A stretch of 64,000 nt of DNA from Haliotis cracherodii. Its lineage: Eukaryota. The stretch is from the NCBI RefSeq assembly GCF_022045235.1, contig NW_027266276.1, forward strand, positions 15,500,001-15,564,000, in the 5' to 3' direction. Positions 1 through 59,256 of the stretch are shown in pieces. Under the pieces are notes generated by a model. That model did no database searches. It saw only the letters and a list, made by a program, of their open reading frames with translations, and was not told the DNA's origin. Made by a program: the position numbers and the translations under genes. Each line of letters begins with the position of its first letter. The stretch's first letter is position 1.

Positions 1-90
1 TGACCACCTGATCCCGTTAATCGCCTTTTACGACAAGCATAGTCGCCTTTTACGGCAATCATGGGTTGCTGAAGACCTATTCTACCCCGG
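1..90 (-). mobile_element. SINE family A (non-tRNA head), partial, runs off window start
   Basis: Reverse complement matches the head of the copy at 47248 (GGTCTTCAGCAACCCATG...GTCGTAAAAGGCGA.TAACGGGATC). Confidence 0.85.
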
Positions 91-3000
91 TATGCAAACA
101 AGTGTAAAAAGAAATATATGTATATATTCCAAGAAGCACTTCCACACACTGTGCCGGACATTAATGAGAAACAAGTTGATAGAGATGCATGCAGTAAAAG
201 TGTGTAAGGTTACCGTGCACAAGAGCTCGTAATTGACCCAGCTGTTGGTCATAAACATAGATATGCTAGGTTGTGTTCTGGTGAATGTTTTTGTTTTAGA
301 TGCTGGAAACATGGTTCAAGCATGTTTCCACGCGTGTTGTGGCATGTGGTCCTGTGCACAGTGCACAGCGCACAGGTAACAAAATCAGGTGAAGCTAAGC
401 AACATCACGGAGTGTCCTTCGATGTGTGGCCGCATTTCAGAAGCTTGGCTCCTGAGAGTTTCTAGAGCTTCAGTCCTACCCCACACTGTAGCACATGTAA
501 AATGTGATGTATCCTTGGCAAGTGACTTTGTTTGAAATGTGCCTCTGTTTACCCAACAGTGAATGGGTACCCGATAGGATGAGATGGCATTGATGGGAGC
601 TGAGAATGATTCCTGAATGCACATTGATCCACAAGCTCCTTCCCAGCGCGTGACACCTTCGTTACACTCTCGGTAACATCGCTGCCACCAGTGTGGGCGC
701 GGCCATTTCAAGAATCTTGAAATTTGCCCTCCAACCCCATATGTAGTAACGTTTATACTTTTGTTTATGTCTTTGGGAATGCCATCATATTTCAATTTGA
801 AAAGGTTTACGACTGACCATGTTTTCCAGACAAATTTACTTTGTTGTTTTGATAATCAGATTGGTTCGAGATTGCAGACTAACGGAAAATCAACCAACTT
901 CTTCCTTACATTCTTATTATATCAATAACACGATAGTTTTAATGAAACAGAAATTCAAACTGACAAACGAAGAAAGTAATTTAGCAGCGATAAGTGTATT
1001 CGGCGCACGACAGTCGACACTTGTTTGTAAACACAACGGTCATTCGGTTGCGAGTTCAACTCCAAGCATGGTTGTGGCCACCTATTCACAGTGGGGAGTT
1101 TTGACTGGTGGCAGCGATAGTATAGAGAGCTCCGGGAACGTACTATCGCTGTGAGGAGCTTGATTGATCCAGTGATATATATATAGCCTATTATAATTAG
1201 TATTTTTGAAGAAGTGCATAATGTGAAAAAAGGATAAGTTTAAATATTTGTCATTTCATTGCATCCTATCAACATGATCAACTAAAAATAACAATAATCG
1301 TTATCAGGGCCCCCAAAATAGTGATGCATCATTATTTTCATGGCACTATAGCCAAAAGCAATTGCTGAAGTATTGAGAGTGAGTATTAGGTCTACCATTG
1401 CTTTGATCAGACTTCAACTGCATGTGTGAGTTATCTTAGTTGTACGCCGCCTTTGACAGTATTCTAGTTATATCATGGCGTGTTAGTTTGATGTGTTGAT
1501 ATGAGAGGAAAACCTGAAGTAATCCACATCTCAGACGTTTAACACTTTGGTGAAACCACAAGCATGAGTATGGTCCTGACAAATCTAAAAACATAATGGG
1601 GCAAACTGGGATAGGAAACCCATGATCCTCTGTTTCTGGTGTGCCCTAAGGGCACAACTCGGCACACTGTATTGCCTTGCCTGGGACAAATGGGCCACCT
1701 TGAAGGCACAAAAGTCAAAAGGGAAATCGTCATTAACCACTTGATGAAACATATAAGCAGGTGGAGTAAGGGTTATATATTTTTTTTCTCAAATTGATTG
1801 TTAATGATCCATTGAGGATAGACAGATTTCCTTCATCTACAATTAAAGTCTATGTACCTGATAGTTGACATCTTCCTTTTTGTATAACAGGGCTCGGACT
1901 TCATCTGGGTCCCCATGGAAAATAGCCTGCACCAGAGGAGACTGCAACAAGAGGACCAGGATTATCTACTCCACTGACGACATCAACATATCACATGTCC
2001 ATCATTAGGGGTAACCATGAAGCAACAATGGGTCATGTGTCCTGTAAGACCTCAAACTATAAGTTGATATTCAGAGAAACTAGGTCACCATCATTTCGCA
2101 TCAATCCCATGTATGACTTTTCTAATATTTCAGAATATAACTTATCACGCCAAACGGTCTTGTTGATTCAGTTCTGCATGTCAGATGCTCAACATGATTA
2201 CAACAGATTCATCTTCATTGGCACTGGGTATCACTGAATGAATACAAGCCTCAACATGTATTTTTTCCAGCATATTTTAGTCTAAGTATATGGTCACACT
2301 TTTCTCCACATTTGCAAGGACTTACAGAAGTCTTCATGTGTAGGCTTGGAGAAATACACAAATACTTCTACAAGGAGTTTACATGGTTTATGTGACTTTG
2401 TGGGATTAAACCATGTTTACCAAACAAACAAAACTCTAAATTCAAGCAGTATCATGGACATGATCACAACATGTTCATGATATTGCTTGAATTTAGATTT
2501 TAGATAAATAATAAAGACAAAGCAATACAATTCAGTTCACATTCCTAGTAGTCTAGCACAGATACATTTGCACAGGGACATATCTTGGTTATCTCAGTTT
2601 TCTAGCTCAAGATCTGCAGCAAATGTTTGCTATCATTCCCAAATTGAAATCGAACATGTTTAGGTTATGATACATTTGCACATGTGACCAGTTTGATATC
2701 ATCATGATCATATTGCATTGAATTAAATGTTAGAACATGAGAACCTTGCATTCAAAACATTTGACCAAAAGATGTTTACCCAAATTTGCCCACCATTGGC
2801 ACGTAGTTGAAAATCTAATCTGCGTTGTCACTACCAGACATAATGCACAAAACTGTGCTTGGTATTTATGTCCCCACCTGTAATGATCCCTACCACTGCG
2901 AGGAACAACCACAACAATGCCTAACAACAGTGGTTCACTGGATACAGGAAAACATTTGAATATGTTCAATGAGGAAGTTGTCATTGGTTCTGTAGATGTA

Positions 3001-3337: not shown

Positions 3338-3492
3338 AATCATCAATCCATGCAACTGGGATACGATGACATGCATGTCAGCAAGTCTAACCATCAACCA
3401 ATCCTGTTAGGTGCCTCTTACGACTAGAGTCCCTCTCCTCTTACGACAAACATGGGTTGCTGAAGACATATTCTAACCCGGATCTTCACGGG
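3338..3492 (-). mobile_element. SINE family A, 5' half
   Basis: Reverse complement begins CCCGTGAAGATCCGGGTTAGAATATGTCTTCAGCAACCCATG. Confidence 0.85.
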
Positions 3493-6433
3493 TTCAAACA
3501 CTTGCATAGAATAAGGTTGACATTGTCCCCAGGTTTCAATGTTTTGGCAGAATACCCTAATCGAACTTTATGTTACCAGTCACCATACAAAGTACTTTTG
3601 ACATCAGATTTGACAAGTATCATAGTTGTTGTCAAGAGTTTAATCTTCAAAATACACTCACTTCTCACAGGTTATCAGTAATTACTAACAATTACTTATT
3701 TAACCATGGACAACATTTTCTGCACTCCAGGCATTTCCACTTCTCAGTAGCTACTCATCTAGTTTTACCTGATGGAATTAAATTACCCATCTAAATTGCT
3801 CAATCTTCTCTAAATTACATACACCGTACTTTCAGCTTAGTTGCTTTAGATGTTGTTTTACACTGCTATCAATAATATCCCATCTATATCACGGTACCTG
3901 TCAATACTTAAGTCTGGACCAGATACATGTATTAGGAGCAACATGCCAACTGTTTGGGTACGATGACACACAACCAACAAAGAAACCAAACTTGAACATC
4001 TGATCAAATAAGATGAATAATAGTGAACAGTTTTACAGTTATATCAATGTGTGTCAGCTTAATGTAATAGGAAAGCCTTAAGTAGGTCTTCGACATTTAC
4101 CACTTAGAAGAAACACGCAAGCACGGGTATGGTGCAGACAAAGCTAAGAAACATGATGAATTATAGAGCATGTAGGACTCTCCTTAGCCAGGTCACCACA
4201 CTTCTAAAGAAATACTGTAAAAGTATTTGTTATTATTAAATCCTTATCACATTCATTAACTTATGACTCAACCTTATTTTTCTGAACAGCAATTGAACAT
4301 AAAGTTCACTAAGTCTTTACTTGATGGGTGGGGCTGTTATTACCTATCACATAGAGCTAAAATATTGACATGAATTTTGTTTATAACAAAACGAAATCTT
4401 TCACATACAGCATAAAAATAAGCACTTAATGGTAAAATAACGACCCATACGATTTGGATGAACACAAGGCCAGATATGTTCTACATTCAGTGTAAGATAC
4501 ACAATGCTACGAAACTGTCAAAAGAGTCGAAAGAGTCAAATGACAGTTGTAATAAACATGGTTTCAATAATTTCATATGTTTATAAATATGGGAAATAAC
4601 TATCTACACAAATAACATTTACATCGGAAGTGCCACGAGTCACCGTTCCGGCATGTGGCATAAGGTTAGAGCAATAAAGTCGACCTACAAGTTGAAGCAG
4701 ACAGCTTAGTCACGGCGATATGCGTATCGAACTGCATCATGGCCTCAAAAGTTTCAATCCTAGCACACAGAGTGTTGCAAACAAACCTCTTCCTCCAGTT
4801 GCTGGACAACTAGACTGCCCAGTTTCATGACAGTTCAAAAAGTGTCAATTAATCCCTACAATACATGAAGAACCTCTACAGGAGTTGCATTTTACAGGAA
4901 GCAGTACACCACTTTGCCGCCATGACAGAACTTCTCCAACATTTTGATTGGTTACTTTTGACATGTGACCACATTCTACTTCCGCCACTACAAGTCGTGT
5001 GAAGGCATGTTTGGGATGGTATTTAAATGCCTTTAACAGTAAACCCATCCTCTCCAAATTTAGATCGGCGTTTTCAGTTTGTTTTCCTTTCATACAACCA
5101 CAGCAGCGGGGTTTTCTTATGATCATTATTATTTTTGGACTGGTTCTATACAGGAAGACCTCTCTAATTACTGTCCAACCCAGGCTTCAACTAAAATATA
5201 TTTTATGCACTTCCCTGAATTGTCTGCTCAGATTTACAAACCTGTAATTTAATATTTACGGTTTACTGTCTTCTCCCGTGAAATCTGAAAACAAATAATG
5301 CTTTGTGTAACAAAGTAGATACAATAATTTACCAAACTGGGTCTTCTGGAAAAAATGAAGGAGGAAAACACAGTTGCGATCTCCCTGTGATTTTTGCAAC
5401 ATTGCCGCAAAGGTAAATAAATGACACCGGGTTACCCGCTAAACAAATACATCATGTCGGCTGATACATGGTAGCCTCATGTCTGCTCCGGTAACAAAGA
5501 AGTGCAAACAAGTCGCATCAGCGTTAAGCGAATTAGTAAACTTTGCTGACATGCTCAGTGGGCAGCATAATATGTAACTTGCAATTGCCATAATAAAGTG
5601 TGGAAAAATACATAATAAAGTGTATTTACACCAAGGACCACACACACAATTAAAAACGTTTTCTTTGACTTTTATGTTGGTACGACGAATACGCTGAACC
5701 GGATTTTTCGGACGGTGCCGTTCCTAACGAAATATACACATGGGAATGGACGTTCCCAAAGGTAACATATTCGCAAAACCACAATATCAGTGCTGCAAGA
5801 CATCCACGCCACAGACACGCACGTTTTCCGTAGATTACTTATGATTTAATTTATACTTTTGGTTGCTTATAGATACCAAGTGTAAACGTACTACAACACA
5901 ATTCAATTCACAACAAACTCATTTGGTGATGTTCAACTAAATGTAAACGACCGCCAACTATACAAATAACCTCCGGTATACTGTTCGTGTATAACGCTTG
6001 GAAACAAAACAAATGTTGTTTATGTTTAGTAACCATAACGTTATTGTGTTAACTACGTAAAGCCCAAAGCTATATTTTAAACAGCCTTAGGGCAATATTT
6101 AGGCAGTGGCAAATAAGTAAACAAATTTACTATTGAATGAAGGATTTACCAGAAAACTCGGCTCAGAGTTTGGGTGATACAAATGACGTCTTGCACTGCC
6201 ACTTTTTATACAAGTAGATGTAGCTAGGTTACCTTGAATATGAATGTACCATAAATCCTTGATAAAATGTCTGAATTTGAAAAAGCGCATGTGGAAGCAC
6301 TTAAATGGAAGAACATGATTACATAACATTAAAGGTATATTATTTCACGAAAAATATATTATCAACATATTCACAAATATACACATTTTAAGGAAGCAGT
6401 ATGACTGACAGGAATAAGGTTTTTAACGCTATA

Positions 6434-10900: not shown

Positions 10901-13900
10901 ACGATAGTCAAGTACTGTATTCATGTACTTTAGTCATCAAGGAATACATTTATGTAGGTGGGTCATTTCCCAGGTTGATTGTACACAGCTGTTTGTTTTT
11001 AGTTTACTTGTTTAAACAAACAAACAAAAAACAACACCCACTCGCACTATATTTTCAAAAGCCTTTGCCTGAGAACCAATTCTTTTTCTTCTTCTTTTTG
11101 GCGTAATAGGGTTTTAATATGTGATTGTCATGATGCAACTTCATGATATGTGGTGACCGCAAAACCTAGAATTTGGTAAAAATGACAACTTGATCACTTC
11201 TGGACATGAAAGAGAGCTGTAGGTGTTGACTGACATGAGGATCTTATGGTTGTGATCTGACTGATTATATGTCACTGCCTCCTGAGGATTGTTGCTCATA
11301 CTAGCAACATTTTCTCTGTTGTGAATAGCTGTTGTTTGATGGTTGACTGTTAGGGAGTAGTGTGCTTTACTGGGTGCACTTTTTCAGAACCAATTAGCGC
11401 TGTGGGGGCTCGAACGCCCTTCACCGGCTCACCGGCTTGGCTAATTAGTGTGTTAATTGGCTGACGTTCTACCACTGGACCACAAGCGCTATCACATGTA
11501 ATCAGTGCTCGTTCAACACACACGTGCGCAATTAAGTAAAAAATGACTTGTGCATGCGTGTGATGTCACGGTCAGCCCTCCCATTAATCTTTTATTGAAA
11601 CCACACCTGCCATTGTTCATGTTAACATGACCGACCAATCAGATTAACCGGATTAATGCTTGAAAAGGTAAGAATTTATGGCCTACCCTTGCCCTAAGCA
11701 AGCTAACCCTAAGGACCGAAAAGGGATGTTAGATTGTAAAGATCTGTAAGTCTCCCTATGACCGAAAAGGGGGGTTGGGTCATAACGACGTGTAAGTGTT
11801 CCCATGACGGAAAAGGGGGTTGGATCGTAAAGATGTGTAAGTGTCCCTATGACTGCAAAGGGGGGTTGGATCGTAAAGACGTGTAAGTTTCCCTATGACT
11901 GAAAAGGGGGGTTGGGTCGTAACGACTTGTAAGTGAACCCATGACGGAAAAGGGGGTTGGATCGTAAATATGTGTAAGTGTCCCTATGACTGAAAAGTGG
12001 GGTTTGATCGTAAAGACGTGTAAGTTTCCCTATGACCGAAAAGGGGGGTTGGATCGTGAAGCGAGAGTCACTGTAGCGTGAGCCACGGTAACGGTATAGC
12101 GATACAAAGGTCGCGCGATAGCGCAGTAATTGAGCAAGATGGTACAGCTCGGCCTGAGTCCAGTAAACGGCATTGTGCCGACTGTTAAAAAACAACATTC
12201 ATTCATTTACAGAAAATATCCCGACAACAGTCTGTTCAAACATTAAAAAGTTTTCTGAAACATCAACTAAATCCCACTGCATGCTGAGTGTCAAGATTTG
12301 ATCACACCAAGAAAATATGGACTGCTTGCAGGGTTAGAACTAGTGACAATTTCTACTGCTGTTTAACATTACAAGGACATTTCATCTTTCCCTGGGCTAG
12401 TACAGCTTTTGAGTTTAGAACGAACCCTGGCTTGCCTACAAAACGTCTGAAAAATTGGTGTCATATCAGTTGTTTCTTGTCCGCCTTTTTTAGGCATTTA
12501 ATGTGATTTGTTGGTTGTTTGCAGAAGGAGATTCGGGCCATGAGCCAGTGCAAGCACGAGAACGTGGTGGGATACTACACATCGTTCGTTGTCAAGGAGG
12601 AGCTGTGGGTCGTCATGAAGCTGTGCAGTGGAGGTCAGTTTGTAGTGTTGAGAATTTCTTATATACAGTATACCATGTATACTATGGTTATAAGAAACTG
12701 AAATTGTAGTCCGTTATAACTGTAGTTTGTTATAAACATATATGAACCAGGAGATACAGGAAATGGCCGGGACACCAAAACCAGTTCGTTATATCCCCGT
12801 TTATTGTAAGCATGTTCATTATAAATGTTCTTTATTGTAATTCAGCGACCCAAGCTTGCCATAAGAGGCAACTATGCTTGTCGTAAGAGGCGACTAACAG
12901 GATAGGGTGGTCAGGCTCGCGGACTTGGTTGATGCATGTCATCAATCCTAATTGCATTGATCGATGCTCATGATATTAAGCACTTGATTGTCTGATCCAG
13001 ACTCGATTATTTACAGACCGCCGTCATAAAGCTTGAATATTGCTGAGTGCGTCATTAAACAACAAACAAACCAACCAACTTTATTGTAATTCAAAGTAAA
13101 CCCTTTTGAAACATTTTGTGCCCACTACCTCTTTAAAAATTTGTTTGATTTATTTGAAAATTGAATATTTTTGGTGTCAGGGTCTTGTGTGTGTTTTCTG
13201 TTAGTCTGAGGAGAGTTTCATAACATTTTCCTTTCTCTGCAGACCAATTGTTTCATTTTAAAGTATTGGTTCCTGCTGTATTGAGTTATTGTTGTAGCTG
13301 TGTACATTATCTAACTGTTTAATTATCATGTTCATATGTAACATGTGAGAGAACTACCAACACCTCAGCTAGTCTGTTCATGAGTAGGGGTGGTCGGGTA
13401 GCCTAGCGGTTAAAGCGTTCGCTTGTCACGCCGCAGACCCGGGTTCGATTCTCCAAATGGGTACAACGTGTGAAGCCCATTTCCAGTGTCCCCCGCCGTG
13501 ATATTGCTGGAATATTGCTAAAAGCGTTGTAAAACCATACCCACTCACTATTCATGAGTATCTTCATACCGCTGCAGGCTCTATGCTGGATGTGATCAAG
13601 GCCCGAATGAGGACTGGGCAGTTCAAGAATGGTGTCCTTGACGAGGGCGTCATAGCAACAGTTCTAAAAGAGGTCCTGAAGGGCTTGGAGTATTTCCACA
13701 ACAATGGGCAGATACACAGGTACCAGATGTGGCTGCCAGTGATGGTATTGTCATCAGCGCAAGCTTCTGTAATGTCTAAGACACTAACATGGGCATGCTG
13801 TAACTCCAGGGGCGTGCTGACCAACTGTAACATGTGCAATATGAAGTAACATGTGTTTGCCCCCTTCCATGATTTTGGGGGGATCTATCCAATTCTTTGT

Positions 13901-19900: not shown

Positions 19901-22900
19901 CTTTTGAATTTGAGACCGCCTCCATGGTCTAGCGGTAGAGCATCCGCCCGGAAACAGAAGGTGCGGGGTTCAATCCCCAGCCGCGTCATATCAAAAGACG
20001 TTTAAAGATGGTACTTGTTGTTACCCTGTCTGGCGCTCAGCATTAAGGGGCTAAAACAAGGACTGGTCGGCTCGGAGTCAGTATACTGTGTCTGAGTGGG
20101 ATATTCATATTAAACTGCAGCATGGTATCTCAGTGAGCTAGCACTATAAATCGGCATCAGTCTGGACTACAAGCAGCCATACACACACATGCATGCACGT
20201 CGCTATATAAGTGCAATAATCTTGGACCCGACGTTAAACTCAATTTCACCTCACCTCACCTTTGGAAATTGAGCATGCCAACAAGAACAACCTTTGAATT
20301 ATCTTTTTACTTGGGGATGTCATCTCACCGTGAGCAACATAGCTGATGGAATCCAGGAAGACTGTCTCCTTCCTCATCATCAACAACCTTTCCAAGTTCC
20401 CATTATAAATCAAATATGAATGTTTGTATATTCATTCTAAATGAGTGCACTGCTTACTTTTGCTAAAGTACATTTATCACTGGCTTTGTGCCCCTGAAGA
20501 TCTGAGTTAGAATTTGTCTTCAGCAACCCATGCTTGTTGTAAGAGGCGAGTATACTTTTCCTAAGAGGTAACTAACAGGATCGGGTGGTCAGGCTCGCTG
20601 ACTTGGTTGATGCATGTCATCACATCCCAGTTAGGTGGATCGATGATTATGATGTCATTTACTGGATTATCTGATCCAGACTTGATTTTTTAAAAACCAT
20701 AGTCATATTGCTTGAATATTGCTAAACTGCATACAAATAAACACTAGCTTCGTTTCATATACATTATCACAACAGACATGCTATCTGATACTGCCCTTCT
20801 GGAACCAGGAACCTTTCTTAACTGTGCATCCACGACTTTATCCATGCAATTTGCACTATAATACAAGGAATTTTGACCCCTGCAATAAAACAATTATCCA
20901 GAAAGAGATTAAACATGGGTAATTTGAGTTACCCAGTTGGGTAAAAGGAGTGGTTACCTTGGACATAGTTTTGACAATGTAGCACACTTATTAGTTGTGT
21001 CGTACATGTGACTTTTAACTTTGTGGTTACAGTGTCTTCCCTTCCAGGATATTGAGTCAGTCCTACCCGGTAGGCTCCCATGTAGGTCTGTTGAAGAAGC
21101 TTTACACATCTGTACAGACTAAAGTGACTGAGTGTGTTTCAGGACAAGGGTTACATCACAAGGGTCCTGCTGTCTGATGGGACAAATGTAAAGCCCCAGA
21201 AGGTACGTGCATGGCGAGACACGGCTTCATCTAATAGAAGTAAATAAATAGATTCATGCAATTCAGATGATAAAGACTGGAGTTTGGAATTGTCATGGGC
21301 TGGTTCTGGCTGGGAGTAACCTTAACATCATTTGAATCAAGATATCTGACCAACCCAACACTTTTGTACATGTGACATTGTGTTAAAGATATAGAATGTC
21401 TACTGTTTAGTTCAGGTTTCTACCATGTCTAATGTGTTGGTAGAACCTCTTAAGAAAGTGGATATGGCTTGTGGACTGAGTGAGTTACTTTCATAACTCC
21501 CGTGGATCAGGTGTCCGGCATGCCGCTGCAATGGTGTTATGATAGCTCATAAGTTCTTTACTGTCCTACTAGTTTCCTGTGCATTACATGAGACTATACC
21601 TAACACGACCTTATGGTACTTGTCAAGCTGACTCAGTTCTATGACAGTTATTAAACTGTCCTTGATAGTAATCCCTATGCGTGTGTAGACAGGCTGGCAG
21701 ATTGTTGTCATACTGTTGTGATAGGCAGCAAACATTATTCACTCACTCACCTTGTAGTACCGGTAATTTGTGTGTATTTTAACAGGTGAAGAGGGTGCCA
21801 GGTTCCAGTGGTCGGCTTCACCGGACACAGGATGGTCAGTGGGAGTGGTCTGACGAGGAGATGGACCAGTTGTCGGAAGAGGGACAAGCAGCTATCTCCT
21901 GTGAAAGGGTGCGTGGGTGGTACTTATGATAGATGGACTGATTATAGACTCTTCACCCTTGGCCAACCCAATGTTGTTCCTCAGCAGTTACATTATAGTT
22001 GACATCAGTATAAATTCTAGATATAGGAAATAATGCTTAAATACAGTCGAATTTGTAGAGTTTTTCCAGAGAAGCTGCTGCAAGTTGATGTTACCTTCTG
22101 ATTTGTTTCAGTCTCCCAGGATACGCAATGCTCCTGTTGAGGTAAGCAGTACCATCATCGTCCATGTAGCGTGAGGCAAAACACATACCAGTTTTAATTC
22201 CATGACGGAAATGTTCTTATGATGTGTTGACTAAATGTTTCCGGAAACTTCTCAAGGGGATTCTACAGGAGTATGTCCCTGATTGCAACATACTTGCTAA
22301 TGTCTGTCAGCTTTCTGGTGAAGAATTGGTTTTCCTGGTCTAAACTGGCTTATTTGTCGGGTGCCCTGTATGTTTGTGAGGGACATCCAACATGGGGTTA
22401 GTTGGCTACTGTGACTTCATCCTCACACTGGCAGACATACACGTATCCCGGGATCCATTCCTGTGGTTCTTGCAACATCAAATTACCTGATATTAATTAA
22501 GATTTTACCTACCAATCAAACAGCGAGATACGGAAATGGGTAGGGGAGGTAACCTGTGAAAACATCCTATCCATGAAAAACATTGTTTTAGGGTTTTCTT
22601 TTGCATGTCAAGTCAGTTTTTCAATTTTTGAATTCTTGCAAACTCTTGTTATCAATTGGACAGGCTGCCATGTTGTTATCGCCAACCCAACATTGAGCCT
22701 GGTTTGTAACTCGCATTGTGATTGGACCGTTAGACTGAGAGTCATGGCAAATCAAAATTGCCTTATGAAAATGAAAGGTGGGTAATTTGAGATTGCCCTG
22801 GAGACAGGATGCTGTGTTCTTGGAAATCTATGATCCATGATCGCAGACTCTGACCCCATCAACCCCCAGGTAACACTGTTTTTTTCTGCAGTAGTTGTCA

Positions 22901-44404: not shown

Positions 44405-44547
44405 AGACTGTCCAGTGGTTGACATTATGATCATCGATCCACGCAATCTAGGATACGATGACATGCATCAACCAAGTCAGCGAGTTTGTCGCCTCTTACG
44501 AGAAGCATGGGTTGCTGAAGATGTATTCTAATCCGGATCTACATGGG
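44405..44547 (-). mobile_element. SINE family A copy (deleted)
   Basis: Reverse complement CCCATGTAGATCCGGATTAGAATACATCTTCAGCAACCCATG... Confidence 0.8.
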
Positions 44548-45071
44548 TAGGATTTAAGTGAAAAACTAAATGGTTTAATAACTTTGGTGTTGTAGATAAT
44601 TGTTTTCGATAGGACATGCGCTATGCACCTTAGTGTTTATTTTGTAAAAACGAACACTCTCGTTTTGCCGACCAGGGATCAACAATGTTGCGCTCTCCGC
44701 CATTGTCATCTGATGCCAGATTGAACTGCATTAATCCAGTGAAATAACCAGTTTTCTTTATCTTTTTGGGATATAAAGATACCATCATGTTTCTATTTTT
44801 GTTAATTTAATAAAATTAATAAATGCATATCAGATAGTGAAATTTCTGAACATTTTGTGCCAATTCTGTACCTGATTTGAATGGTTTTAAGACGAATGGA
44901 CGATGTTTTTCTAAGATATAATGTATTTTCGGACTTGTTAAAACAACTACACATCAATGTAAAAAGAGGCACAGTTTGTCGGTATAATTCAAATTATTAA
45001 ATTCATATAGTTTTATACAGAAACATCTAAAAACTTTAAAAATATTCAACAAAACTTGAGAAGAGAACAAT

Positions 45072-46289: not shown

Positions 46290-49200
46290 GTATGTGTATT
46301 TCATAATTACCATGACAGTATTTTAGGCGTTAAGGAATTAGCCGATGTTTGATCTCAGCGAAATAAACGTTGAACTTGAGCAACGTGGCTTATCTGGTCA
46401 TGTTATCTTGAGATGTTAATGCCCTATCTACAAAGGTACCGTCTGTAGATTTAGTGACAATGGTTCTGAAATCTTCAGAGTAAATTTGTGCTGGAAGTAT
46501 ACGTTTGGGACTGGGAACTAAATTTCGACACATCCGATTCGACACATCGGAAGTTAAATAATGATGAATAAAGAAGGAATACGCAGGGACCAAGTTTTTA
46601 CTTCGAGACAACCGTCACAGTTCTACACAACGGTTGGCCGATATTTGAAGGACTGTATTCATTGGTCCATATCATCAAATTCCAACAGAGATAGAGGATG
46701 ATACAGTGACATTGATAGAAAGTTATAACCTGTTCTGCTTCGATATAGGCATATCTTAGAACAAAGTATATTTATAAAGTGGTCAAGTTAGTTAATCTAC
46801 CCATGTATGGACTTTACCATGTCTACCGAAACTAAATATAACGATAGCGGCATTAACTATTGATATTTTAACTTGTCATCGCGTATCGATACATTGCCAT
46901 TAGCGAGGGGCAAGTACAGCTCACCGATACGCTCCTCCAAACACTCCTCCTTACCATCAATACGATAAGTGTCGCCCTACTCTTGACTCCAGGATCTGAT
47001 TCCGGCCTCACCATCCACCAAATCGACATCTCACCAATGCCTGTCGTTGTCCCCGGCGACTTGCACCTCACCATCAACGCGTCGTCGACGAGGAAGCAGC
47101 TGAACCAGATGAAGTTGTCGGTGCACGTGAAGAGGGATACTTTCCTCCTCAACATCCCCATTCCCTGCCTCTTCCATGTCGGATCATGGTGAGGAACATC
47201 GGCCTACATGTACATCTAGCATCCTGTTCATACTGTCAGAGCGTGATCCGTGAAGATCCGGTTTAGAATAGGTCTTCAGAAACCCATGCTTGCAGTAAAA
47301 GGCGACTATGCCTGTCGTAAAAGGCGACTAACGGGATCGGGTGGTCAGACTCACTGACTTGGTTGATGCATGTCATCGAATCCAAATTGCGTAGATCGAT
47401 GCTCATGATGTCAATCACTGGATTGTCCGGTCCAGATTCGATCTTTTATAGACCACCGTCATACAGCTGGAATATTGCTGAGTGCGGCGTTAAACAACAA
47501 ACTGTCGTAAGGTAATCGTCCTCGATTATTTAATGCGTTAAATCTCCATTCTATTGGATTAAATCCCATTGAGCCATTAGAATTAGAATGGCATGGCTCT
47601 TGAACACACTGTCCAATAAAATAACACTCGTGTGCGAGAGAAAGTCTGTGTTAAGTTACTAATTATCAGATGAAGATAGTAACGTCAATGGTCAATCGAA
47701 GATATGGGACGGGTAAAATTATGATGGAATGAAGAAAGACGATAATATGTAATAATCTCATGCATTGCTTGACATCGTGAAATAAAACGTTCATATACCA
47801 AGATACCAAGTCCAGTGACATGACACTGCCTTATGTATACATGTACATGTATGGTTGTGTAAGTGAATTCAGCTTAAACCTTGAGCATTATGCAGTTTCA
47901 TTACAATCAAACTAACCGTATGTTGTACCGGAAGCCTGAAGATACACAGAGTAACATGTCAGTCTGTAGGGCAGGACTAACATGTATGCCGATTAAAGAT
48001 ATATGGCATTATGTTTTACATATTTAGACTGATATTTGATATATTATTATGTCAAATCTTAGTCAAATATATAATTATACATAAATATATAACATTTGAC
48101 ATAATCATAGATCTAAATATGTAAAAACATAATGCCACGACACTGTAGCTAACCTGGACATGCAATGAATTGAAAGACCGCCACGTAATTTATGTTAAAA
48201 ACTTTCAGTCAGGTGAGCTTAAGAGTGAAAATTGATGCTTTTTTAATATTCACTCTACATGAAATTAAAATCACATTTATCAAAAATTCAATGACATTTT
48301 GTTCTTAATGGAAATTTAAATGTAAAGGAAAGATCAAATCCCATGACTACCCCCCTTCTGTGTTCTTCCTTCTAGCACCTATGACGACACATGCACACTC
48401 CTGGCGACGATGCAGAAGGAGAATTGGGCCGGCATCATGGGCGACATCGGGCGCCAGATCCAGCAGATGCTGGCTTCTGTGGGGATCACGACCTATTGTC
48501 CCGCGGTAGTCCAGAGCATCGACCTCCAGGACTATGTACTGAAGATGCCGGCCGTTCCCTCCATATTGTCCTGGTTCGCGGAAGTGAGTTGAGAATCTGT
48601 GTCCCCCTTGTGTATCGCGTTGGGACTTCCACAACGTGTTTGCATCTTGAAAGCCTCCCTGATCCATCGAGCTGTCCCGAACATTCTGGACCTTATATGA
48701 TGATTGTTTTCTATCATCAAACTCAAGTAGTATCTTTGAAACCCTTCCCTGTTGGTGATTTACACAGACCCCCACAATGACCCCAAGAATGTAGGACATC
48801 TGTTAGGAGGTGGAGGGGAAGGGGGCTGGGATATTATCGATATTGTCCTATAAATCTTCAGACGGTTGAGAAAAATGAAATTGCCTGCCACCAAAATGTA
48901 AAAATCTACCTCGTGGTTTTTAAATAAAAAATGGTTTATTAGCTGTAGCTGAAATATATGTAATCTCGATAAAAAAATCCCAGATCCCTGGTTAATTAGG
49001 GGGTCAATTGCCAATTTGAACTTCATTGAAACCTTTTTACACCAACTTCGTCTGAAGCGACATATCCAGTTGACGATGTAACTTGATGGTCATTGCAGAA
49101 CCCACGTTGGTAGGTATCAGTGTTCTGTTGCTGGTCACCTCTTGTCTAGAAAATGGCGACATTATATTTCTGATGGTCCCCACGACTTCTTCATACTGCT

Positions 49201-57450: not shown

Positions 57451-59256
57451 TGTGAAATAAGCGATAAGTTTCAGACTTGCAGCGCACACAGATTTTGTGA
57501 TCAACTGCATGTAGAATGATCGGCTGAGCGTATTTCTAAGACCTTGAAGTTGCAAGTGTTAGCTAAACAAATGTTATCGAATACCAAAGTTTTGATTCTA
57601 TACTCAAGAAATACAAAAGACTTCGCTATGGGATAGACATGTTTACTTTTAATTTAGTGTGTAAATGTTTCACCTTTATTTGAATTACTTTGTTTACGAC
57701 GTTGTCCATAGCAACAGAAGTATTGAAGTGGACTGCCTTATTGTGTATTTTTTTATGGAAACTGTTTTCAAATTGGTTGTTTTAAAAACCATTCCAGTTT
57801 ACCAGTGTGAAGGGGGAGATTTATGTTCCAAGTTCGACAGCCCTTGAACTAGCATACAACATCAGATAATGTTTTCGCCCTTGCTTCCCAGTGTATTATG
57901 TATTTGGCCCAAAACTCACAGTGTTCTCCATGTTAAGTATTAATTTTATGAATAGAGTCACATATGTTATATGTTATTTTTTTTAAAGCAAAATATTTAA
58001 AAAGCGTCACCTTTCCACATTTCTTCAGCGATCCTGACCATCTTATCCACTTAGTCACCTCTTATGACAAGCCTAGGTTCTTCTCGAAATCCCTAAGGGG
58101 AGACAATATTCCTATTCTCAATAGAAAACAAGGAAACAAAACGTAAACCATTGCAGTTGTATGGTCACAGTATATTTTGTAAGCAATCTTGAAGTTTTGT
58201 TATTTAAGAATACAGCCGTTCTTTGAAACATTTTTTTAAGTCATTGAGTGTCAACTATACAAATTGTTTGACACTACACCAATATCAACCAGTGGTAGAC
58301 CTCCTTGATGCTTCTGCAGTATTCACGTCTTTATATCCTTTAGAGTCCAGGTAGAAAAGCAATGTCCGCATACCATGTATGTGTATACCCCACTAGTGTA
58401 CTGGAGTCATTGATGCCTACTTATCTTTTCCAGGGTATGCACTTAAGTTTTATGTACATAACACACTTTGTTTATCAAAACAGGTATTTATTCCACATAA
58501 GTAAGAATAAGATATATGGACGAACAACTTCTTTATTACAATTGGGAGTGACGCTTCGGTGTTTCTGATGTTTGTCTTTGAAACAGGATGTTACTAAGAG
58601 TGAAGTATTTACATTGAGATATAAATCAATACCAGAAACTCTTGTTGGGACGTTACATACATCAATAGACACGTTTGTGGAACGTTTTAATTCACCACGT
58701 TATTGATTCGGGAAGTTGGAGGGTGAGGTATTGAAATAAGTGGAGGTCTTCACTTATGCATATACTCACTCGGGCCCTTCAGAAAGTTGGATCTAGAAAT
58801 ATATCATTTGGCCTTTAATCATTTAGTAATACACGCTTTAACCATATATTATGATACGTATCCTAGCTCTTATCTGCGATTAGGTAGCAATTTGTGATAA
58901 ATTATCTAAGCTTTCACATGTGTCTGTTCATCAAGTACTAACAGCTTTTGCAACATTGGCATTTAATATTGTGCCATGGTATATTTGAAGTCAGTAGGTG
59001 GGACACAATCTCCATACCTACAAAAACATGAGCAAAAACCAATTTCAGCAGTCTTACACGTGGGCACTATAGGTTTGATGACATGTCATTTGGGTTATTC
59101 AATGAATGATGTTTCAAGTTTTTTAGACAGTTTCAGCTGAGCTTCATTGATCTTTTATTATTCCTTAACCCTCACTAAGTATTTCCTTCTCTATTGTTAG
59201 TTCGGTGGCAGTGCCTGTTGCCCATCCATGGTTGGGGCGGTTGTGATATGGCTGTG

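What the first reader, a model, noticed from the sequence alone, without database searches (positions are those of the whole stretch)
47248..47340. Abundant SINE whose head is a predicted pseudoknot rather than a tRNA: candidate ribozyme or structured-RNA retroelement
Seen: family A has about 12 copies or fragments in this window (1, 3338, 10322, 12845, 14391, 20491, 35230, 44405, 47248, 49349, 56509, 61548). The 15-bp TSD at 12830/13079 and the simple-repeat tail indicate retroposition, yet the head lacks Pol III A/B boxes. Intact heads begin at the same CC(C)GTGAAG and fold by eye: an outer stem CCCGT/ACGGG; a hairpin TGAAGA.C...G.TCTTCA whose loop GGGTT can pair with the downstream AACCC; then one or two GTCG-TAAGA-GGCGAC hairpins and a CTAA linker into the closing strand. 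The 47248 copy reads GGTTT/AAACC, which keeps the pairing. Established: several non-LTR elements use 5' HDV-like ribozymes to release themselves from host transcripts. Inference: the order (P2, P3, loop pseudoknot, P4, CTAA, P2') recalls an HDV-like core, but no conserved P1 is visible. It could be a different self-cleaving class, a LINE-derived internal promoter, or an RNA-stabilising fold.
Basis: partly seen in the sequence, partly recalled or inferred. Interest (0 to 1): 0.72.

Follow-up and report, generated by a model that had tools for sequence, protein, structure and literature searches.

The report
Double-knot RNA in retroposons and viruses
The front end of an abundant abalone jumping element is a short module, predicted from compensating base changes to fold as a double-knotted RNA, that also starts other animal jumping elements and sits in the tail ends of unrelated RNA viruses, where it most likely acts as an untested roadblock to RNA-chewing enzymes rather than as the self-cutting RNA first proposed.

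Summary
The SINE is real: 17 pieces in the window and 34,630 exact copies of its 17-nt core in the genome. It fits the published LP-SINE group (PMC4758252), whose head was read as a LINE promoter. A different fold, two tandem pseudoknots around a conserved hairpin, is supported (89% paired, 0/500 shuffles; swap tests). No Rfam family matches. A model built without viruses finds the module in the 3' UTR of 6 RNA viruses (tandem in 2) and in a large DNA virus, so it works at least there as RNA. A LINE in the same genome carries it directly behind an HDV-like ribozyme, kept in 30 of 30 copies, which argues against the module cutting its own 5' end. Best reading (0.4): a new class of exonuclease-resistant RNA that fixes retroposon 5' ends. 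Rivals are a new ribozyme and a host-factor or translation element. Function is untested.

The parts
47245..47502 (+). Full-length SINE copy (258 bp; published Haliotis LP-SINE consensus is 255 bp)
   Evidence: 91.9% identical to copy L016; length from PMC4758252 supplement
47245..47246 (+). Element start (G)A, 1-2 nt before helix S1
47247..47250 (+). S1 5' strand (family CCCG; T47247 in this copy), pairs with 47259-47262
47251..47251 (+). Loop 1, single conserved U
   Evidence: nearly invariant
47252..47257 (+). S2 5' strand GAAGAT, pairs with 47272-47277
   Evidence: (5 of 7 S2 pairs change on both sides)
47259..47262 (+). S1 3' strand (family CGGG; T47262 in this copy)
47263..47271 (+). Loop 3 of pseudoknot 1 with conserved AGAAUA; expands to over 60 nt in another family
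47272..47277 (+). S2 3' strand GTCTTC
47278..47281 (+). Helix Y 5' strand (family AGCA; C>A here), pairs with 47287-47290
47283..47285 (+). Helix Z 5' strand CCC, pairs with 47333-47335
   Evidence: swap test only; short in this family
47287..47290 (+). Helix Y 3' strand TGCT
47287..47308 (+). First, degenerate unit of the 22-nt duplication (Y' plus hairpin)
47313..47331 (+). Conserved core U-GUCGU-AA(A/G)AG-GCGAC-UAA; loop fits a T-loop spacing (inference)
47333..47335 (+). Helix Z 3' strand GGG
47461..47502 (+). Tail with weak similarity to the 3' end of an I/Nimb-type LINE of the same genome, then (CAAA/CAAC)n
   Evidence: 16 of 18 and 18 of 21 identical, E=0.27
12830..13093 (+). 5'-truncated copy with exact 15-bp target-site duplication
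20489..20723 (+). Copy with full head
3341..3494 (-). Copy with full head, tail missing
44405..44549 (-). Single-unit head with internal deletion behind it
1..102 (-). Head fragment at window edge
58025..58136 (-).

Best explanation
The SINE head is a 75-nt mobile module, predicted from covariation to fold as two tandem pseudoknots around a conserved hairpin, that most likely works as an exonuclease-resistant RNA (xrRNA-like barrier). Shown: the module, its covarying helices, its place one purine from the 5' end of four retroposon families, its place after the last stop codon of six RNA viruses, and its place behind an HDV-like ribozyme in a LINE. Inferred: copies are transcribed passively from host promoters (introns, read-through past poly(A) sites). 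XRN2/XRN1 would chew the uncapped host RNA 5' to 3' and stall at the base of helix S1. The surviving RNA would begin exactly at the element and be reverse-transcribed from its tail by an I/Nimb-type LINE. The fold would thus do by stalling what HDV-like ribozymes do by cutting. In viruses it would give a short 3' subgenomic RNA or protect the 3' end.
For: FOLD: on a sequence-only alignment of 16 non-viral heads, S1, S2, Y and the core pair in 89.1% of 303 cells, covariation 0.432 against 0.182, 0 of 500 shuffles, slid controls 33-49%. Partner swaps on 22 heads give permutation p<5e-5 for S2, Y and Z and 2.5e-4 for S1. RNA LEVEL: model R1, built without viruses, scores 43-69 bits on 8 viral contigs from 7 viruses. 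In all 7 RNA-virus contigs (6 viruses) the motif is in sense, 5-122 nt after the last long ORF and starts 91-185 nt from the contig end; it is tandem in 2 viruses (RdRp or capsid Pfam hits). Known xrRNAs lie in 3' UTRs, often in tandem (PMC8632102, passages). 5' END: one conserved purine before S1 in 4 families (70/80, 18/27, 10/12, 9/10), also in copies whose loop 3 has grown by about 55 nt, so the start follows the fold and not a fixed distance from the core. Plant-virus xrRNAs stop Xrn1 at the base of their first helix and use a T-loop (PMC12397905). LINE: 30 of 30 copies keep the upstream HDV-like ribozyme and 0 of 30 start at the module. A passive barrier allows this because HDV cleavage leaves a 5'-OH that XRN enzymes do not attack (established knowledge, recalled). 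A stable 5' fold improves R2 template function (PMC11331408, abstract).
Against: No assay was run. Plain frameshift pseudoknots do not stall Xrn1 (PMC10321173, abstract), and no ring around the 5' end was modelled. The topology matches none of xrRNA classes 1-3. Known xrRNAs vary greatly in sequence, whereas this core is nearly invariant, which looks more like a catalytic or binding site; part of that invariance is ascertainment, because the core was the search key. The core lies in the 3' half, away from the 5' end. The viral product would be only 91-185 nt long. A purine start, with G one base earlier in 54 of 80 abalone heads, also fits a capped transcript whose cap is copied as G; the other three families show no such G excess. 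Several heads in the tests are related, so the p-values are optimistic. On a wider alignment with viruses S2 pairs in only 57% of cells, partly from misalignment.
Confidence: 0.4

Rival explanations
1. The module is a new class of self-cleaving ribozyme that cuts just 5' of helix S1 and frees the retroposon RNA.
For: Near-invariant core and AGAAUA across retroposons and viruses. Sharp 5' boundary. Size and double pseudoknot are typical of small ribozymes. Known ribozymes occur in UTRs of linear RNA viruses, including toti- and tombus-like ones, with partial cleavage tolerated (10.1101/2024.05.16.594327, parts 1-2). In the LINE the cut site would lie inside the HDV P2 helix and could be blocked, and the LINE core drifts between subfamilies.
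Against: The LINE inherits an upstream HDV-like ribozyme in 30 of 30 copies; active cutting would remove it. Its core variants keep or extend the hairpin pairing (GU, GC at the U-U position). A cut in a viral 3' UTR would remove 3' replication signals, and the published viral ribozymes are mostly in 5' UTRs. The base before S1 is not conserved in viruses. No Rfam ribozyme match.
Confidence: 0.25
2. The module binds a host factor or the ribosome. It would act as a cap- or poly(A)-independent translation or stability enhancer in viral 3' UTRs and uncapped LINE RNA, and would bring SINE RNA to the LINE protein; the 5' end is set by something else.
For: Invariant loop sequence suggests a binding site. 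The viral contigs end without poly(A). In the LINE it follows a ribozyme that yields uncapped RNA needing translation. In the large DNA virus it lies between a stop codon and a downstream hairpin.
Against: Does not explain why four unrelated retroposon families begin exactly one purine before S1 regardless of loop length. The SINE has no ORF. No known 3' translation-enhancer family matched in Rfam.
Confidence: 0.22
3. The head is only a LINE-derived internal DNA promoter, as proposed in PMC4758252.
For: Position at the 5' end; purine start and frequent extra G in abalone. L1Tc Pr77 is both promoter and ribozyme (as cited in PMC4758252), so promoter activity could coexist with any RNA function.
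Against: Helices covary. The module is in RNA viruses with no DNA stage. Start-to-core distance varies about twofold. LINE copies start 58 nt upstream at the ribozyme.
Confidence: 0.05
4. The viral occurrences are assembly chimeras with host retroposon RNA and carry no functional information.
For: Several records are metatranscriptome contigs and the motif lies near contig ends.
Against: Each viral version has its own compensated helices. Two independent contigs share the same 3' end (L186, L191). Sequence behind the motif matches no fetched retroposon body; the only hit is a second motif copy. One copy lies inside a 212,482-bp viral genome.
Confidence: 0.04

Closest known systems
[quoted passage not shown] 2016, PMC4758252; section 10, passages and supplements 3 and 4 part 1 read)
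   Same: About 255 bp, non-tRNA head of about 70 bp shared with LINE 5' ends, target-site duplications, simple-repeat tail. The scallop 'Nimb-17 homology' region in supplementary figure S2 contains the same 17-nt core and, by eye, the same helices.
   Different: The paper reads the head as a promoter, reports no fold (0 occurrences of 'pseudoknot') and no viral copies. The Hdi_LP sequence itself is in a figure that could not be seen.
Class 3 plant-virus xrRNAs (ST9a, SCNMV, PLRV; PMC12397905, part of Results and passages read)
   Same: Compact pseudoknot in a viral 3' UTR, stop at the base of the first helix, a T-loop-type hairpin.
   Different: Class 3 is one stem-loop with a loop-to-3' pseudoknot and the T-loop inside the apical loop. 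Here there are two tandem pseudoknots with the hairpin in loop 3 of the second. Resistance is untested, and I found no paper with an xrRNA at a retroposon 5' end.
Class 1 and 2 Flaviviridae xrRNAs (PMC8632102, passages read)
   Same: Double pseudoknot, 3' UTR, tandem copies.
   Different: They need a three-way junction and a base triple; the supported fold has no three-way junction.
HDV-like ribozymes of R2, RTE and L1Tc/ingi elements (PMC6765202, passages read)
   Same: Modular 60-80 nt pseudoknotted 5' element shared by unrelated retroposons; CUAA before a closing strand.
   Different: No P3/L3, no P1.1, no nested double pseudoknot; the C of CUAA is paired in the hairpin. A true HDV-like ribozyme occurs separately, upstream of the module, in a LINE of this genome.

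Membership tests
LP-SINE | Head of about 70 bp homologous to the Nimb-17_LMi-type LINE 5' end | tested here: met
   Same core as the scallop Nimb-17 homology region (compared by eye); same module at the 5' end of an APE-RT-RNase H LINE in G000
LP-SINE | Short non-coding element with variable target-site duplications and tandem-repeat tail | tested here: met
   Exact duplications of 7 bp or more in 19 of 47 full-length matches, 10 bp or more in 12 of 47
LP-SINE | Identity with the published Hdi_LP consensus | not testable with these tools
   Sequence is in a figure; only the length (255 bp) could be compared
tRNA-derived SINE (SINE2) | tRNA-like head with A and B boxes | tested here: not met
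   ARAGORN 0; Rfam 0; no B box at up to 1 mismatch
HDV-like ribozyme | Nested double pseudoknot P1-P2-P3/L3-P1'-G-P4-CNA-P2' | tested here: not met
   Descriptor hit 1 of 269 motif regions on either strand, positive control found; no Rfam HDV match on the module
HDV-like ribozyme | Self-cleavage giving a 5'-OH | not testable with these tools
   Needs an in vitro assay
Hammerhead, twister, twister-sister, pistol, hatchet ribozymes | Family core and helix order | tested here: not met
   No Rfam match at E<=10 (window) or E<=5 (18 loci); CUGANGA..GAAA order in 0 of 269 regions
xrRNA class 1/2 | Three-way junction plus double pseudoknot | tested here: not met
   Supported helices form two tandem pseudoknots; no Rfam match
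xrRNA class 3 | P1-P2 stem-loop with L2B T-loop in the apical loop and one 3' pseudoknot | tested here: not met
   Different helix order (against PMC12397905)
xrRNA (functional definition) | Protein-independent stalling of Xrn1 with a ring around the 5' end | not testable with these tools
   No assay or RNA 3D modelling available; small-RNA reads too few
xrRNA (functional definition) | Location in viral 3' UTR, often tandem | tested here: met
   7 of 7 RNA-virus contigs, tandem in 2 of 6 viruses

The most novel reading that the evidence does not exclude
An undescribed class of structured RNA moves as a cassette between animal LINEs and SINEs, unrelated RNA viruses and a large DNA virus. In retroposons it replaces both promoter and ribozyme by letting host 5'-3' exonucleases trim host transcripts to the element's exact start (a cellular xrRNA), or it is a new class of self-cleaving ribozyme.
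Probability: 0.6. Interest if true: 0.92.

Novelty: new variant of a known kind. Interest (0 to 1): 0.8.

Why it matters
LP-SINEs break the rule that SINE heads come from Pol III RNAs, and how they are expressed was left open in 2016. A covarying fold shared with RNA viruses makes that question directly testable with a 75-nt RNA. If it stalls exonucleases, it would be an xrRNA used by cellular retroposons and a third route, besides promoters and ribozymes, to define a retroelement 5' end. If it cuts, it is a new ribozyme class. Either way it is a small, high-copy module matching no Rfam 15 family, exchanged between retroposons and viruses. It may also serve as a stabilising 5' module for RNA-templated gene insertion.

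Tried and rejected
Rfam scans of the window and of 18 related loci: no family. ARAGORN: none. Single-sequence folding: not significant. Identity with the known Chilo iridescent virus HDV-like ribozyme: the ribozyme-derived sequence printed in PMC8266583 (one passage) differs by eye from the module in L187; the original papers were not held. Twister, pistol and hatchet mappings by eye from recalled consensus: no fit. tRNA-like structure cut by RNase P: the helix distance from hairpin to 5' end (about 20 bp) does not fit (inference). Run search: no RNA holder listed on record. miRNA-seq lays gave 46 reads on the SINE and 27 on the LINE head, too few for end mapping. Annotated phage records: no match. 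Pattern hits in large IMG/VR contigs other than L187 scored 27.9 bits or less and lack the upstream helices; treated as chance or palindromic repeats. The 7 hits in prokaryotic genome contigs are read as eukaryotic contamination (short contigs, contig ends, one animal-symbiont assembly); this was not proven. My first HDV descriptor was insensitive (4 of 282) and was replaced. R1 search of the whole L187 record was not possible. Literature: 10 searches found no description of this fold; the core sequence occurs in 0 papers. Subscription papers, figures, Repbase/Dfam notes and bioRxiv supplements were not visible, and large screens of candidate viral RNA structures (recalled) may list it unnamed.

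Full report
Observation. The repeat family is real. BLAST with a near-typical copy gives 19 matches at 17 places in the window, covering all 12 places named. The 15-bp duplication at 12830/13079 is exact. The genome G000 (1.18 Gb) holds 34,630 exact matches of the 17-nt core against 0 for the reversed control. Of 47 full-length matches in fetched loci (a few are duplicates), 19 have exact flanking duplications of 7 bp or more and 12 of 10 bp or more. There is no tRNA, no Rfam family and no B box. Elements begin at (G)A just before CCCG.

Prior description. PMC4758252 (section 10, passages, supplements 3 and 4 part 1) describes LP-SINEs in Haliotis, Littorina and oysters. Their roughly 70-bp head is shared with the 5' ends of Nimb-17_LMi, I-3_DR and RTE-9_CPB and was interpreted as a promoter. 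The Haliotis consensus is 255 bp, like this element, and the scallop version printed in the supplement has the same core. So the element group is known, and the host is most likely an abalone; earlier notes on this genome say so too. The paper gives no fold.

Related heads. The core found at least 122 stretches in metagenome assemblies (scan stopped at its limit). With 7 from genome contigs these formed 32 clusters from 130 rows. They look like animal retroposon families with different bodies; I did not determine the hosts. I chose by eye representatives with an intact 5' part.

Fold. On a MAFFT alignment of 16 non-viral heads, four helices pair in 89.1% of 303 cells with covariation 0.432 against 0.182 in shuffles (0 of 500), and slid controls pair in 33-49%. 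The helices are S1 (5' C-run with the G-run in the hairpin loop), S2 (the hairpin), Y (directly after S2, with the strand before the core) and the core hairpin. Helix Z (mid C-run with the strand after CUAA) shifts register in the alignment, so it was tested by partner swapping on 22 heads: 25 were parsed, and I dropped a degenerate abalone copy, a degenerate contig and a phage control. About six heads are related families, so these p-values are optimistic. With viruses added (20 rows) covariation stays above all 500 shuffles, but S2 falls to 57% paired, partly from misalignment. The result is two tandem H-type pseudoknots, S1/S2 and Y/Z, with AGAAUA in the first long loop and the conserved hairpin plus UAA in the second. 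The hairpin loop has the spacing of a tRNA T-loop (inference from recalled consensus). The core was the search key, so its invariance is partly built in; AGAAUA was not required. The claimed compensation in the 47248 copy occurs in 1 of 5 GGTTT heads.

Viruses. Pattern scans of IMG/VR followed by model R1, built from non-viral rows only, gave 8 contigs at 43-69 bits; all other hits scored 27.9 bits or less. Seven contigs come from six RNA viruses: a toti-like genome, tombus- or noda-like genomes and a tetravirus-type capsid segment, by Pfam. In all seven the module is in sense, 5-122 nt after the last long ORF and starts 91-185 nt from the contig end; two viruses have tandem copies. The eighth is intergenic in a 212,482-bp DNA virus (an iridovirus by recall). 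Sequence behind the viral motifs matches no fetched retroposon body. A DNA promoter cannot explain these copies.

A LINE in the same genome. A second family (218 and 538 exact hits of two patterns) is a 6.1-kb element with endonuclease, reverse transcriptase and RNase H domains, 12-13 bp target duplications and a tail weakly similar to the SINE tail. An I/Nimb-type assignment is inferred from that domain set. It starts with a minimal HDV-like ribozyme: all helices are visible and the Rfam HDV-F-prausnitzii score is 27.5-29 bits, below the gathering score of 44. The module follows with no spacer. All 30 copies fetched by a module-internal pattern keep the ribozyme region (56-62 of 62 bases; 26 classed full, 4 with changes at the first bases) and none starts at the module. 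The HDV descriptor hits upstream of 51 of 68 LINE cores and of 0 of 117 other G000, 0 of 120 metagenome, 0 of 7 genome-contig and 0 of 29 viral cores; background was 0 of 300.

Mechanism. Four families start one purine before S1 (70/80, 18/27, 10/12, 9/10), and copies with about 55 extra bases in loop 3 start at the same place. The fold therefore seems to set the 5' end. Active self-cleavage there would strip the LINE of its ribozyme; a passive barrier would not. 3' UTR position, tandem copies and a stop at the first helix are features of xrRNAs (PMC8632102 and PMC12397905, passages). I rank an xrRNA-like barrier first (0.40). Against it: plain pseudoknots do not stall Xrn1 (PMC10321173, abstract), the topology is new, the core is unusually invariant, the viral products would be short, and the abalone G at -2 (54 of 80) could be a copied cap. 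A new ribozyme (0.25) survives if its cut site is blocked inside the HDV P2 helix, and ribozymes do occur in linear RNA viruses, mostly in 5' UTRs (10.1101/2024.05.16.594327, parts 1-2 of 6). A host-factor or translation element (0.22) fits the invariant loop but not the fixed start. Reads could not decide.

Verdict. A known SINE group, with a corrected and well-supported fold that matches no Rfam family and was not found in 10 literature searches, shared by retroposons and viruses. Function is inferred, not shown, and two simple assays would settle it.

Noticed in passing
L285 (G000:C1:42250600-42260500, minus), L286, L288-L327: I/Nimb-type LINE family (at least 538 copies by one pattern) beginning with a 58-nt minimal HDV-like ribozyme with almost no P4. 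The review passages read list R2, RTE, baggins and L1Tc as carriers; I did not check specifically for I/Nimb. Many copies cluster at C2:20.9-21.7 Mb and C6:4.2-5.6 Mb.
   Followed up: partly
L308:1439-1498: In one contig set the HDV-like ribozyme has over ten times the depth of the module behind it, and some contigs leave the stretch at 1496-1498, suggesting other elements use the same ribozyme without the module.
   Followed up: no
window 46872-47189 (+): Open frame with a weak ML-domain match (E=0.0065, below cut-off) ending at a GTGAGG donor-like site. The 47245 SINE would lie in sense about 55 nt into the intron.
   Followed up: partly
L187:10025-10060: In the large DNA virus the module is followed by a hairpin containing CATTA, resembling the iridovirus mRNA 3'-end hairpins (recalled), which would place the module in a 3' UTR.
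   Followed up: no
L099 (metagenome) and L287 (G000:C1:5946700-5946850): Tandem or partly duplicated modules also occur in non-viral elements.
   Followed up: no
L071, L091, L112, L129, L156, L143: Families whose loop 3 has expanded by simple repeats to 60-130 nt while S1/S2 and the start are kept.
   Followed up: partly
L194-L200: Prokaryotic genome assemblies that contain the full module, probably eukaryotic contamination. L199 is 85% identical over 87 nt to the abalone LINE 5' UTR but lacks the HDV-like ribozyme.
   Followed up: partly
G000:C1:3567445-3579810: SINE core repeats at about 2.4-kb spacing, suggesting a tandem array that contains a copy.
   Followed up: no
L308:1501-1531 (minus), run X22: 21 antisense small-RNA reads begin at one place over the LINE module (piRNA-like length); they may be copies of one molecule.
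   Followed up: no
L288:2551-2622 (minus): A separate tRNA-headed repeat (Rfam tRNA, 30.1 bits), probably another SINE family.
   Followed up: no
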